In this document: piece by piece, positions 19,701 through 34,514 of the stretch
Position numbering within the stretch: position 1 is the stretch's first letter
Layout: every line of letters begins with the position of its first letter
Origin: Stylophora pistillata
Lineage: Eukaryota
Direction of reading: 5' to 3'
DNA length: 64,000 nucleotides
Assembly (NCBI RefSeq): GCF_002571385.2
Contig: NW_019217790.1
Coordinates: forward strand, 647,819-711,818
Made by a program: the position numbers and the translations under genes
The notes under the pieces: model-generated
Database searches by the model: none
What the model saw: the letters and a program-made list of their open reading frames with translations, nothing else
Told to the model about the DNA's origin: nothing

Positions 19701-22700
19701 GTGTGCTTTAAAAGGCAGAAAATGGAGCTACGTTATTGGTGGGAACATGGCAACGAGAAAAACACGAATAAATTAGTGGAATGAAAAGCGTTCGTTGATC
19801 CCTGTGGGATTTAGACTGCCGGTTTGAAAGATGAGCTTTTGTTCAAGAGTTTTACGGCTTTCCGTGCTACCTAAGTGTAAAGAAAGACCGCAGATTGTCA
19901 TATGTTGCTTAGAATGATTAGGTAAATTAAAATGTCTAGCGACTGGTTTCGATGTTTCCTTGTCATTCCTTTCCACGTCGCGAAGGTGTGACCGATTCCT
20001 CTATTCGCTCCGACGAAGGGCTAACTCTCAAATCGCCAGCTTTTGTAATGGTTACGGTGGCCAATTTACCATTTCAACTTTGTTGATATATCCAAATTAA
20101 GTGGTAGATAAACGAATTGCAGATAATTTCTCAATCTAGATAATCATAAACAGCTTGTCTGGATAAGCTAATATAAATTATTTACCAGAGTCAACACACA
20201 CCGCTAGTTTTCCTTACCTGAATGAAGGCTACCGACTTGCTTAGCTTCTTAGTAAAGTTGCCGAAGCCAAATCCTGTGATTCTAAATGTGCGAATGTCCA
20301 GGTCTTGATCCATTGTGTGCAGGATAATCACGTTCTGCGCAGGTGCGGTTGCATTTGGATCATTCTCAAACCTGATCTTCTAGTTCAGAGGAGTCTTCAA
20401 AGAAATAAAGCGTGCGTCTCCATATCCAGGGGGACCAATCATGTCATTCTGTAACACATCAAGGACATATAAAAAAAAAATCAATCTTCTCTCATAAGGA
20501 AACACCCAGAAAGAGTGAAGACTTGAAAATCAATTTTGAGTTAAGCTACTGAAAAAGCTGACAAAAGGAAAGAAACCGATTGTATATACAGTATACACCA
20601 CAACTGCATACGATGACTACGCATCATTTTTTCTGGAGCGCAATCTCGTAAAATCAAAATAATCTTGATCATAAACCCAGTCATTCAAACAGAACGTTGC
20701 CTAAATAAGTCTTTGCATGAACAGTATCGGCGAAAGTCTTAGAGGACAACAACTAAGATACGCATTGTTGTAAGGTTATTGATGGTGACCCAGACGATCT
20801 ACTGTATAGCAACATACATATTGCGACAACAAAGGAAACTTATGTATTTAATATTGGGACAAAAAAAAAACTTTTGTTAATGAATCATCTCACCGGATCC
20901 CAGGACCGAACCCAGTCGATTATCTTATTGACGAGGTCTTTTCCCAGCGGTGGAACAAAAATATTTTTAACAGTCTTATCGTAGATATCGTCTACGAAGT
21001 TGTCCACTGGTGAATACCCTTCAAAAGAAACGCAGCATTAACATGTGGAAGGAATAATCTCATGGATGATTTGCTGTCGAGTGTAAGAGCATGGGATGCC
21101 TCAACACTCATATCAACATGATAAGCGCTTCAATGACTGAACAAAGAAGGGAAACTCCCCGAAGAATTTCTTGCAGTGTACGAAACGGGAAAGATCCGTT
21201 CGAAAGGGGCAAAGTTTTAAGCCAGCGGCATACGAGAATTCCTCTGACTATTTTACTACTTTTCAATAGTCGGCTCGCGCTGTCTTTGAGTATATGGGGA
21301 GAAAATCATGCCTTCGTCTATCAAAACAGCGTACACTAAATAACAATTACTTTTCTTGGGCTCTTGCATTTAGTTGATGGACGAGTCTTCGATACAACAT
21401 TATCAAGCATAAACTAAAAATAAAAAGCACTCCTGATCTGCATGATCAAAACTCATTAAACCTCTCGTGGAAAGTTTCGAAACAGTTTTCCTTAAAGCAG
21501 TTACTGGGTGGACAGTAAAATCATTAGTACATCTACCTGTTCTCCATTTTGGTCTCTTCAGAGGTGTTATGGGCGACGAGATCACACTAGTTACACCACT
21601 TTCTAACGCCTGTCGCAAGTTTATATTCGAAATACCATTATCAATTCCTTGCTGTAGTACTGAGCTTCCAAAGCTAATTACAAACCCAGCTACGATTTCT
21701 GCATAAAGATAAATACATATAGAAATTATTATTATTGTCATCGTCATCATTAACAGGGGCTTATTGCTAAGCAGTCATTCAAATGAAGCATCCCATCCAT
21801 GGGTCAAATACCACCTATACAGAGAATAAAATGATGGAGTAAGCTACAATCTATACTTAACGTTCTCTTTTTAAGTATCGCCTTTTTATACTTACGTTCT
21901 CTTTAAAGTATAGCACTTACGTTGTCTTTTAAAGTATCCAGAGACGAACCCTCCTATGGCGCTTGACACGACTCCTGAAGATGGCAAACAATACTGACTG
22001 TAGTGCAATTCAGTCATTCAGCGTTATTGACAATAGTCTGGTCATTAGAGCGCTCTTCGATTGCCAGTAAACCAAAACCAAAGTAATCACAACAACCAAT
22101 CAGAAGAAAGGAAATTAAATTCAAGAGCCAATTAGAAATAAGAAGAAAAACCGACAAAACTGCCTAAAACGCGGGAAATCGCGGGCGACCGAGTCGTGAT
22201 TAGTTTTACTTTTGCATCTGATTGGTTGAGAGAGGGGCGGGAATTTTCGGGACCGAACCCAGAGCGAAGTACAGCAGAAGCAAAGCAATCCCGATTTGCT
22301 TTCGACATTTAATTGAAAATTGCTCAATTACACGCTTGTCAAATCATGAACATTTTCAAACAGATTTTCACAAAGTCTTTCGCGATGATATGTTAAAGCT
22401 ATTCACGATACTGGGGCTCTGACTTCGTCCTCGAGTCGTTTTTTGTTTTCATTGTCGGGTTAACTTTCCTGCTGCGAATGGTATGTTTGGAAACAGAGAG
22501 CGAGAGCCGCTCTTGGGAATATTGGCCCACGGTCGTGGCAGTACAGACCGAGCGCAGCGAGGGCCATACAAAAACAATAGAGGGCCAATATACCCCAGTA
22601 AACCTTAGTGGGGCTTCAGGAAGCCAGGTTAGTAAGTAGTTCATTGATATATAACTCTCTGGAAAAAAATATTTATTTTGATTTTTCCAGCTTTCACGCA

Positions 22701-31700: not shown

Positions 31701-34514
31701 AATGGGTCGATCAGCACGTCCTGGCTGAGATACAGCGCATTGTACCACGCACCACGTACAGGTGATTCCCCGGAGTTTGTGACGTTGAAAGTGACATTCA
31801 GTGGCTGGCCACCACGCGTTTGCACTTTTGAGTTTCCCAGTGAGCCTTGCAGATCTGGTAACAGTCCTACTTTAATAACTATAGGCGTCAGAACAGTTGG
31901 TGTCACAGTTGGTAGCGTGACATTAGGCTGTGTGACATTAGGATGCGTGACATTAAGCTGCGTGTTATTGATGGGTTCAACAATCTCTGGCCACGGTGTA
32001 AAAGGGCTGTGGATGTCTGCAAAGCCATGAATGAAAGCAGAAGAACGAAATCCATGTGGAATTGAAACGTTGATACTTTCTTCATAAAACGAATTAGCTT
32101 CCAAGGCTCCTATGTGGGGAATGTGCTTTAATTTCGTTCCTCCCTCGATGACCTCTGTCCGATTTGCATCCTTTTTTCCATAAGCGTAAATCGCATCTGT
32201 CCATGATGTTTTCTTCGTTGCAACAAGTCCCTCGTTCTGTACCCGAAACTTGATGGAGAAAGGAACTCCAAGGGTGATCTGGGACGGTAAACTTGAAATA
32301 ATAGTCAGGATTAACCTAGGTGCCGGGGGAGGTGGAACGTTGAGGACTTCCCTTGAAACACCGATATTATTTGAAGTTCCAGAGACTTCAGAGAAGGTTT
32401 TGTTGGAGTTTGTAACTACATGCACGTAAAACTTTCCGATTACGTTTTCGCCAATCTGTAAAGTAGCGGAAAGCTGGTACTCTTGCTGTTCATCTAGTTT
32501 AGCAGTAACGGTTTCAGATGCCATGACACGGGCATCTTTGCCATCGATGACGCCTTGTGAGGACGAGAATACTACGCTGTCCACCCAAGATAAAGGCTCG
32601 CGCATCCAGCTGCCAAAGTTTGCCACTGACCACAAAACCGTCAAAAAACGACGTTTTTCTTCAAAAACAAAAGATACATCTACAATGGCTAAGTCTGGCA
32701 GTGGTTTTGGTAAAATTTCAGCACGAATCCAAGCTAAGTTGTTCACCAGCACACCTTTTCCAACCACAGAGCCGCCCTCGTTGACTTTCAAAACGAAATA
32801 ATAAGTTCCAGATGTATCAGATGGTAACTTCATAAATGAAACCTCGGTGTAACTCTGCCCGGGACTTAAAGCTTGTCTGAGGAAGGAGTCAGCAAGTTTT
32901 GTCGAGTTATTTTGTACAGTTGGAGAATTTGACAGGTAAACCGCGTCTTGCCAGGTGTTCGCCAGCGTACTTCCTGTGCCATTGTTTTCAACAGTCCACA
33001 TTAATGATACTTTGGATTCACTCAAAAGGGCTTCCTTAGGGGACAACAAAGTAAAGTTTACTACGACAAAATCCGGCAGAACCTGTGGAAATGTTATATT
33101 GCCAGAGGATCTGATATTGCTCTTTACGTTATTTTCTGCGACTGCTCCATACGCGTTAGTTTTAACGAAAATATACCGCTGTCCAAAAATATCCCTATTT
33201 ATGCGTATGGGTCCTGTATTGATGCTGTATCGTTTGCCTGAACCCAGATTGACTCTGTGAGGGAAATCTCCCAACCATATTGCATTACTTTGTGAATATT
33301 GAGCCTGCGATGAGATGTAAAGTGAGTCGAACCAAGGTGCTTCGGTTGTTACTCCTTGTCCAGCGTTTTCAACCGAAAAAGAGACACTCAACTAGGCTTG
33401 GACGTCGTCAGCGGTTAAAGAAACGTTGACATGCGTGACGGTCAGGTCGGGCAACCTTTGTGTGACATTCACGTGTACGGTTTTCTCGTTGTTATGGTTA
33501 AAGATGAATTCAAAAACGTCGTCATCATAATCCGTGTAAACTGTGATGTTGTATTGTCCGGTTGACCAACTAGAAGGAATGAAATAATCCACAGTTCTAA
33601 CGTACCACGAGGAGGGCGGAAACAATCCTGAAAATCGGGTGACTCCAAGAACTTTATATCTTAATGATGCAGTATTTGTGATGGTCTGAAAATGAAGCAA
33701 AACATGTTTTTCAAAATATTTTATCTACGTCAACAAACACACGAAAAAAAAAAAAAAACCCGAAGGGAACCTGTGTGATTTATCATTGATCTTTCCTTCG
33801 AACCTTTGTAAGCGATAAATCTGAGTATCCTGAGTATCACTGCTCCTAGTGCGCGAGACCCAACGAAAGCTTTTAGATTCGGGAACAGGAAATCCTCGCT
33901 CTGACAACAAAAAGGTCCCCGACACGCCTGGTTATTGGACTTCCTCAGAGCGCCGGTTTTGAATATAATTTTAATTGTAATTTTTTTTTGGAAGATTTAG
34001 TTTGGGACGTTAAAATTTATTTCATTGCATCTAAGGTTTGACTAAAGTAACATGAGGCTTTCCTTTAGTTATCAATAAGCAATGAACATGAACCAATCGC
34101 TTACGCGAGGCTGTAAGGAATTCGATGAAGCAGAGGAACTCCTCATTATTCCACCAATAGCTTCCTACTCACCATGCGATCTCTCCACCAATAGTTAAAG
34201 GGTTCACCGAGGCCTTTGTTCGAAACGTTAAAACGAACCTCCATCACATCTCCTGTGTAGTAATTTTCCAGCGTCGTGATAGAAGTTACAACCAGATCTG
34301 GGGGAGGGCTTAAGTGTATTCGCATCGCCTGCAAAAATAAAGCAAGAAATAACCTTTAAATGATTTGCCAGATAACCTTATTTGAGAATTTAACCTTTCT
34401 ATATCCAAAATTTAGAATTAAAAAAATACTAGCTTCGATTGGACTCGAACCTATTCCTCCAAAATACTATTAGGGCGCTAGTTCCAGAGACTATTTAACA
34501 ATTATTCCACGTGC

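What the first reader, a model, noticed from the sequence alone, without database searches (positions are those of the whole stretch)
20380..33394. All defects in the giant gene are pyrimidine-to-G at TAY/YAG positions: three in-frame TAGs and one GAG acceptor
Seen: about 4,040 codons with no frameshift but TAG at 33392-33394 (VQA*LSV), 23038-23040 (NLYS*AANNP) and 20380-20382 (PLN*KIRFEN). The last two sit on motif tyrosines (NLYxYxxNNP; LxYxIRFEN). The acceptor of exon 27199-26809 is TTTTACCCGGAG rather than YAG. Random decay should give mixed stop types and indels. Hypothesis A (which I favour): these are silent C/T heterozygous sites (TAY, YAG), written as IUPAC R on the plus strand and converted to C. 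As I recall, SOAP-type 2-bit encoding ((base&6)>>1 into ACTG) maps R to C. The gene would then be intact but mis-annotated as fragments or a pseudogene. Hypothesis B: amber read-through as Tyr or RNA editing; the three contexts share no read-through motif. Hypothesis C: a young pseudogene.
Basis: partly seen in the sequence, partly recalled or inferred. Interest (0 to 1): 0.7.

Follow-up and report, generated by a model that had tools for sequence, protein, structure and literature searches.

The report
False stops in a coral gene
The three stop codons that seem to break a giant coral gene are very probably spelling errors that the genome assembly made at positions where the coral's two gene copies differ; the gene is spliced and looks intact, so this is a data artefact rather than new biology.

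Summary
A 42-exon minus-strand gene (4,027 sequenced codons) has exactly three TAGs and one GAG acceptor, and all four carry C on the plus strand. Stony-coral homologs have Tyr at all three stops and CAG at the acceptor. Contigs of public genomic and polyA runs read TAC at 20380 and 33392, and both sites are heterozygous in one sample. One spliced 10.9-kb RNA contig spans all four sites. The letters at 23038 and 27202, and the second alleles, were not displayed. Other window letters look wrong too: transversions dominate in exons, and at missense differences the window matches the homolog in 0 of 13 cases. Hypothesis A (wrong letter at heterozygous sites, mostly R to C) is supported at about 0.87. 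The full SOAP table is not singled out. Read-through or editing is effectively excluded; a real null haplotype remains at about 0.07. The protein belongs to a CARDB-Rhs/YD-DUF7619-EGF family of marine invertebrates that I found no paper on, which is the more interesting side result.

The parts
12826..50716 (-). Giant gene, 42 modelled exons, 4,027 sequenced codons: signal-peptide-like start, N-terminal domain, Ig/HYR-like domains, CARDB repeats, YD/Rhs repeats and core, DUF7619, EGF repeats; last exon not found
33392..33394 (-). TAG 1, in a CARDB repeat; contigs read TAC; heterozygous in sample S1
   Evidence: C>G in X1 (depth 6.4 of 13, arm starts at the site; the long X1 contig ends at 33391), X2, X3, X15; Tyr in 3 of 3 stony corals, 5 of 13 aligned homologs
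23038..23040 (-). TAG 2, on the invariant Tyr of the Rhs core; public fragment P0003 ends here
   Evidence: Tyr in 14 of 14; TAC in 4 of 4 coral loci that cover it; spanned by the spliced X15 contig, letter not displayed
20380..20382 (-). TAG 3, on the invariant Tyr of the YxIRFEN motif (DUF7619 region); contigs read TAC; heterozygous in sample S1
   Evidence: C>G in X2, X3, X15; X1 covers it at depth 7.24 without G; Tyr in 13 of 13 aligned; TAC in 1 of 1
27200..27202 (-). GAG splice acceptor; the junction is used in RNA; homologs have CAG
   Evidence: table 8: record 9 joins 27555 to 27199 (record positions 4349/4348); CAG in 3 of 3 coral loci; letter in the runs not displayed
21552..32956 (-). 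Twelve further missense letters where the window differs from run contigs (21552, 21567, 21573, 22984, 24402, 25191, 25224, 25308, 29578, 29901, 32232, 32956); most are probably the same artefact
22988..23330 (-). Rhs core (two exons) with the Arg and both DPxG motifs, followed by a Gly/Ala-rich hydrophobic segment
39379..40214 (.). 836-N assembly gap inside the gene, hiding about 100 codons present in homologs

Best explanation
The four defects are assembly artefacts at heterozygous single-base sites, and the gene is intact in the animal. Steps: (1) the sequenced coral carries two alleles at these positions (shown for 20380 and 33392); (2) one allele is TAC, Tyr (shown for the same two); (3) the other is most likely the silent TAT, so the plus strand is A/G, code R (inferred); (4) an assembly or post-processing step wrote a third letter, mostly C, in place of the ambiguity (inferred from the spectrum of differences; tool not identified); (5) annotation then split the gene (shown: the public 1,849-aa fragment ends at TAG 2). 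The intact product is a roughly 4,100-4,300-aa secreted or type I membrane protein with an Rhs/YD shell. By analogy with Rhs proteins it probably cleaves itself after the second DPxG and holds the following hydrophobic segment inside the shell (inferred, untested).
For:: G instead of C at 20380 in 3 of 4 runs and at 33392 in 4 of 4; the DNA-type runs cover introns evenly, so this is genomic. X1 and X2 are one sample and differ at 20380; X1 has a two-armed bubble (6.4 of 13) starting at 33392. One 10,872-nt spliced contig of polyA run X15 follows my exon model through all four sites, with no gap in the 8 listed pieces; of 23 displayed exon differences 14 change the protein; the window residue equals the Oculina residue in 0 of 13 alignable cases, the contig letter in 9 (0 of 9 informative, p=0.004), the transition partner of the contig letter in 3 more; transitions are 5 of 23 in exons; indels against X1-X3 are 0 in exons and 4 in introns (Fisher p=0.044), unlike a decaying allele. 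C>G 13 versus G>C 2 in X3 (p=0.007); a 'window letter is always a true allele' model is worst in 12 of 12 fits, 11-45 AIC units behind the best conversion rule; silent heterozygous site plus third letter gives Tyr stops 79% of the time, decay 14-21%; homologs have Tyr, TAC and CAG.
Against: The second allele was never displayed (40 of 116 rows shown), so G/C heterozygosity, a true nonsense allele, is not excluded at either site. The letters at 23038 and 27202 were not displayed. All four runs are contigs, not reads; X1, X2 and X3 are not independent and may be the source genotype. Displayed intron differences look natural (9 of 17 transitions, window C in 1 of 17), so the anomaly is concentrated in exons. 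X1 and X3 share the same letter at 16 of X1's 19 differences in 22227-25293, more than independent choice of alleles would give; unexplained. The change counts include rows from a repeat at about 28950-29340. The model fits are post hoc and assume a transition share. A whole-gene codon test against six coral proteins was uninformative (NNG 10 versus NNA 8, including the three stops).
Confidence: 0.87

Rival explanations
1. Real null haplotype or young pseudogene allele: the individual carries one working allele (TAC) and one decayed allele (TAG), and the assembly shows the decayed one.
For: At 20380 (X1, depth 7.24) and 33392 (second X1 arm) a non-G allele exists and its letter is hidden. A decayed allele would also carry the non-conserved residue at missense sites. 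Paralogs exist in Oculina (two loci), which could relax selection.
Against: 3 of 3 Tyr-to-TAG has probability 0.001 or less under decay; no frameshift in 4,027 codons and 0 exon indels against 4 in introns; exon differences are 78% transversions with a C>G excess.
Confidence: 0.07
2. Other assembly errors: plain consensus or polishing mistakes, partly at homozygous sites, with no ambiguity code involved.
For: X1 and X3 agree on the letter at 16 of 19 sites in one 3-kb stretch, as homozygous sites would. No conversion table is uniquely favoured.
Against: Both displayed stop sites are heterozygous in sample S1; errors blind to heterozygosity would rarely land there. Four of four defects share the same plus-strand letter.
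Confidence: 0.05
3. Amber read-through as Tyr, or RNA editing of TAG to TAC.
For: The polyA contig reads TAC at 2 of 2 displayed stops.
Against: Genomic contigs read TAC too. No homolog keeps a TAG: TAC in 4 of 4 and 1 of 1 coral loci, Tyr in the proteins. It does not explain the GAG acceptor or the missense letters.
Confidence: 0.01

Closest known systems
False premature stops from assembly errors (general class; e.g. PMC12007338, seen as search listing and abstract start)
   Same: An intact gene is split in annotation by wrong letters in the assembly.
   Different: That paper concerns long-read errors in small genomes. Here the errors are substitutions without frameshifts, at heterozygous sites, with a letter bias. 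Four searches listed no paper on this conversion or on such errors in this species.
Bacterial CARDB-Rhs/YD-DUF7619 giant proteins (e.g. Anabaena P0056, Roseimaritima P0066, Crocosphaera P0162)
   Same: Same domain order, 26-33% identity over long stretches, same Rhs core and YxIRFEN motifs.
   Different: The coral gene has at least 41 introns, a different N-terminal region and C-terminal EGF repeats; homologs end in a transmembrane helix. Animal proteins form a separate branch.
Teneurins
   Same: Animal surface proteins that join EGF repeats to a bacterial-type YD shell (abstract starts of PMC5851990, PMC3278476, PMC6428715). One family member is labelled 'Teneurin-3' in a database (P0050).
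   Different: Teneurins are type II, with the membrane helix and EGFs before the shell; here EGFs and the helix come last, and CARDB and DUF7619 are present. Teneurins lack the last catalytic Asp (PMC9935623, passage); this family keeps it in 14 of 14 homologs.
Mosquito SGS1 (PMC9935623, passages)
   Same: Animal protein over 3,000 aa with an Rhs/YD shell, an Arg plus two Asp autoprotease and hydrophobic helices after the core; thought to be of bacterial origin.
   Different: SGS1 lacks a signal peptide and ends in Tox-SGS; the passages I saw name no CARDB or DUF7619; it was not among the 27 solved-structure hits.

Membership tests
Ambiguity-code conversion artefact | The site is heterozygous in the sequenced individual | tested here: met
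   20380 and 33392 in sample S1; 2 of 4 sites, the other two not displayed; whether S1 is the source individual was not established
Ambiguity-code conversion artefact | The assembly letter is neither allele | tested here: inconclusive
   One allele (G) shown, second hidden; indirect support from spectrum and homologs
Ambiguity-code conversion artefact | The RNA is spliced and reads a sense codon | tested here: met
   X15 record 9, TAC at 2 of 2 displayed stops
SOAP-type 2-bit table (R,K,S to C; Y to A; M to T; W to G) | All six codes follow the table | tested here: inconclusive
   R to C fits 4 of 4 defects. Several T and G sites fit poorly: X1's totals leave no hidden T>C or G>A row, so M at 25325 and W at 25376 are excluded unless those sites were never coded. 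AIC does not separate the rules
SOAP-type 2-bit table (R,K,S to C; Y to A; M to T; W to G) | The assembly passed through such a tool | not tested
   The pipeline behind the window was not identified
Pseudogene | Disabling changes fixed in the genome | tested here: not met
   TAC alleles in 4 runs of up to 3 samples
Pseudogene | Mixed stops and frameshifts from neutral decay | tested here: not met
Programmed read-through or RNA editing | TAG in DNA, conserved in relatives | tested here: not met
Rhs/YD-repeat proteins | YD repeats and Rhs core with Arg and two Asp | tested here: met
   Pfam RHS_repeat E=4e-29 on P0003; both DPxG motifs seen by inspection; best solved relatives of the Montipora protein are teneurin-like and Rhs proteins at E=5e-26 to 2e-22
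Rhs/YD-repeat proteins | Autoproteolysis and an enclosed C-terminal cargo | not testable with these tools
   No structure or biochemical data obtained
Rhs polymorphic toxins | Variable C-terminal toxin domain at the end of the chain | tested here: not met
   The core is followed by a short hydrophobic segment, then conserved DUF7619 and EGF repeats; Pfam shows no toxin enzyme domain in 5 proteins scanned (one Oculina model has a borderline ShK-like domain)
Teneurin | Type II topology, EGFs before the YD shell | tested here: not met
   EGFs at 3761-3960 of 4029 in Montipora, hydrophobic helix near the C-terminus in 6 of 6 homolog tails printed (helix judged by eye)

The most novel reading that the evidence does not exclude
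Once the false stops are set aside, the gene is an intact member of an undescribed family of roughly 4,000-aa surface proteins of cnidarians, molluscs and echinoderms. The family would come from a bacterial CARDB-Rhs-DUF7619 protein captured independently of teneurins and mosquito SGS, fitted with introns, EGF repeats and a C-terminal membrane anchor, and still able to cut itself and release a shell-enclosed hydrophobic segment: a tethered, domesticated Rhs device for adhesion or microbial defence.
Probability: 0.35. Interest if true: 0.6.

Novelty: not a real feature. Interest (0 to 1): 0.24.

Why it matters
As biology the stops matter little, because they are very probably not real. As a data problem they may matter to coral genomics: in 6.7 kb of exon, at least 14 protein-changing letters differ from run contigs, two of them displayed stops. 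If this holds genome-wide, gene models of this species are split, and missense, dN/dS, variant and editing calls made against that sequence carry a biased error. I tested one gene only. The side result, a conserved Rhs/YD-shell protein family in marine invertebrates, could be of more lasting interest.

Tried and rejected
No whole genome was available, so the genome-wide strand test could not be run. An exact DNA pattern around TAG 2 found 0 matches in metagenome contigs. Three protein searches found no second Stylophora or Pocillopora full-length protein; these searches are limited by length and word sharing, so this is no evidence of absence. A codon-ending test at 2,734 columns conserved in corals gave NNG 10, NNA 8, NNC 8, NNT 3, too noisy to use. 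I tried to infer hidden rows from per-run totals; third-letter predictions fit the totals, but a true-allele model is also feasible, so I do not count this as evidence. Seven conversion rules were fitted; none is uniquely best. A search for the transmembrane exon in 12930-6400 found only intron-like hydrophobic stretches. Stops seen in homologous loci at codons 2019 and 2634 are alignment overhangs at exon junctions. L011 (30% identity) was left out of the codon counts. Earlier-findings look-ups returned nothing. No structure was predicted.
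Full report
1. The observation. The window holds a minus-strand gene from 50716 to at least 12826. I modelled 42 exons by homology and splice sites. Of 41 acceptors 31 are CAG, 5 TAG, 4 AAG and 1 GAG. 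All four defects have C on the plus strand. Under single-base decay of this sequence, three Tyr-to-TAG changes out of three have probability 0.0003-0.001; if silent heterozygous sites receive a third letter, 79% of the resulting stops fall on Tyr.

2. What the gene is. A protein search returned a record named Stylophora pistillata LOC111330000 (XP_022790519.1, 1,849 aa), identical to the window's translation and ending exactly at TAG 2. So the public annotation is a fragment with the same letters. Full-length homologs of 3,100-4,300 aa exist in Oculina, Montipora, Nematostella, Actinostola, Clytia, two molluscs and four echinoderms. Pfam gives CARDB, RHS_repeat, DUF7619, HYR-like and EGF domains. 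The residue at TAG 2 is Tyr in 14 of 14 aligned homologs, at TAG 3 in 13 of 13, and at TAG 1 in 5 of 13, including 3 of 3 stony corals. Ten coral-like loci from metagenome contigs (68-74% identity; an eleventh at 30% was dropped) have TAC at TAG 2 in 4 of 4 that cover it, TAC at TAG 3 in 1 of 1, and CAG at the odd acceptor in 3 of 3.

3. Direct test with sequencing runs. Of 24 runs listed I laid four on 20300-33500: X1 and X2 (one sample, DNA by guess), X3 (kind unknown, covers introns evenly) and X15 (polyA RNA). All are contigs, not reads, and only 40 of 116 difference rows were shown. At 33392 all four runs read G; X1's long contig stops at 33391 and a bubble arm of depth 6.4 out of 13 begins at the site, the mark of a heterozygous base. 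At 20380 X2, X3 and X15 read G, while X1, the same sample as X2, covers the site at half depth without G. So both sites are heterozygous and one allele is TAC. The second allele was not displayed. Rows for 23038 and 27202 were not displayed; the displayed rows all have X1 or X2 support, and the longest listed contigs of those runs do not cover these two sites. X15 record 9 is a single 10,872-nt contig whose 8 listed pieces match my exons in order, including the join of 27555 to 27199; length arithmetic places its ends inside the N gap and in the EGF exons.

4. The errors go beyond four sites. Of 23 displayed exon rows, 14 change the protein. The window residue matches Oculina in 0 of 13 alignable cases, the contig letter in 9, and the transition partner of the contig letter in 3 more. 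Four of these sites show the same conserved residue in 10 of 10 metagenome loci. Transitions are 5 of 23 in exons; over all rows 13 of 56 in X1, 9 of 36 in X2, 17 of 65 in X3, against 25 of 49 in X15, which appears to be a different genotype. C>G outnumbers G>C 13 to 2 in X3. Indels against X1-X3 are 0 in exons and 4 in introns outside the repeat. A model in which the window letter is always a true allele is worst in 12 of 12 fits, by 11-45 AIC units. These fits are post hoc, assume a transition share of 0.45-0.65, use non-independent runs and include rows from a repeat.

5. Which conversion? R to C explains 4 of 4 defects, and 'R to C at about half of the sites' is the best or near-best rule at transition shares up to 0.58. 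But 6 of 23 exon rows have window T against contig A or G, several of them at conserved residues, which looks like R written as T; and some heterozygous sites keep a valid allele. The full SOAP table, both-strand SOAP, uncomplemented codes and random letters lie within about 4 AIC units at a share of 0.58. The tool and rule remain open.

6. Results against this reading. The hidden second alleles could be C, which would make a real null haplotype (0.07). Displayed intron differences look natural (9 of 17 transitions); one possible reason is that clustered intron variants are resolved to one haplotype while isolated exon variants get a code, but this is untested. X1 and X3 share the letter at 16 of X1's 19 differences in 22227-25293, which I cannot explain. 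The transmembrane exon of the homologs was not found in the window, so 'intact' refers to the modelled part.

7. How the protein probably works (inferred). The Rhs core keeps the Arg and both DPxG motifs. In mosquito SGS1 and Tc toxins these residues make an aspartyl autoprotease, and teneurins lack the last Asp (PMC9935623, passages). The most likely picture is a large secreted or type I membrane protein with a YD shell that cuts itself behind the core and holds the next hydrophobic segment inside, with CARDB and Ig-like domains for binding. In a FastTree tree of 53 proteins (Rhs to DUF7619 region, unrooted, many rows with skewed composition, no teneurins included), 14 animal rows and 9 unnamed environmental rows form one side of a branch with support 100, apart from 30 rows that include the 4 named bacteria. 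The window's protein branches outside Oculina plus Montipora, so it may be a paralog rather than a strict ortholog.

8. Literature. For the artefact: searches listed no paper describing this conversion or such errors in this species (listings and abstract starts only). For the family: searches listed teneurin, Rhs and SGS1 papers but none on this family. I saw passages of 10.1101/2025.11.11.687626 (CARDB appears once, as a domain label of bacterial teneurin-like proteins) and of PMC9935623, and abstract starts of PMC3278476, PMC5851990, PMC6428715 and PMC12007338. I opened no supplements; gene lists there could mention the family. The library lacks most subscription journals.

9. Verdict. Observation confirmed; hypothesis A supported in substance (0.87), its named software cause unproven; read-through and editing excluded; the stops are very probably not a real feature. 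Interest 0.24.

Noticed in passing
window 44333-44464 (+): An intact-looking second copy of exon 1 (start codon, signal-peptide-like stretch, THFRGG motif, GT donor), 79% identical over 75 nt to the true exon 1, lies inverted inside intron 1. It could be a relic of duplication, a paralog's start or a local misorientation.
   Followed up: partly
window 12826-6400 (-): The extra EGF exons and the transmembrane exon that end the Montipora and Oculina homologs were not found; the gene may end as a secreted form, or the assembly may have lost exons.
   Followed up: partly
proteins P0052-P0055, P0057, P0059, P0060, P0062, P0016: Unnamed environmental proteins of 3,300-4,350 aa on contigs of 11-20 kb group with the animal family; the two I read share its architecture and end in EGF- and thrombospondin-like domains, apparently as single reading frames. 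Their organisms are unknown.
   Followed up: partly
window 60957-54686 and 6447-4320 (-): Three diacylglycerol acyltransferase (Pfam DAGAT) genes flank the giant gene, and a scramblase gene lies near 3070-130. Not checked for the same letter errors.
   Followed up: no
window 28188: The RNA run X15 has an in-frame 3-nt deletion in an exon, a true polymorphism.
   Followed up: no
window 22227-25293: X1 and X3 differ from the window by the same letter at 16 of X1's 19 differences, with several indels; this may be a stretch where the assembly follows a different haplotype.
   Followed up: partly
window 28950-29340 and 51140-51470: A very high-copy repeat with a tRNA-like head (depth thousands of times the single-copy level), probably a SINE; two copies in the window.
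   Followed up: no
window 46128: A single isolated N, apart from the 836-N gap.
   Followed up: no
protein P0050: A sea-cucumber member of this family is labelled 'Teneurin-3' by its source although its Pfam list (CARDB, DUF7619) and tree position place it in this family.
   Followed up: partly
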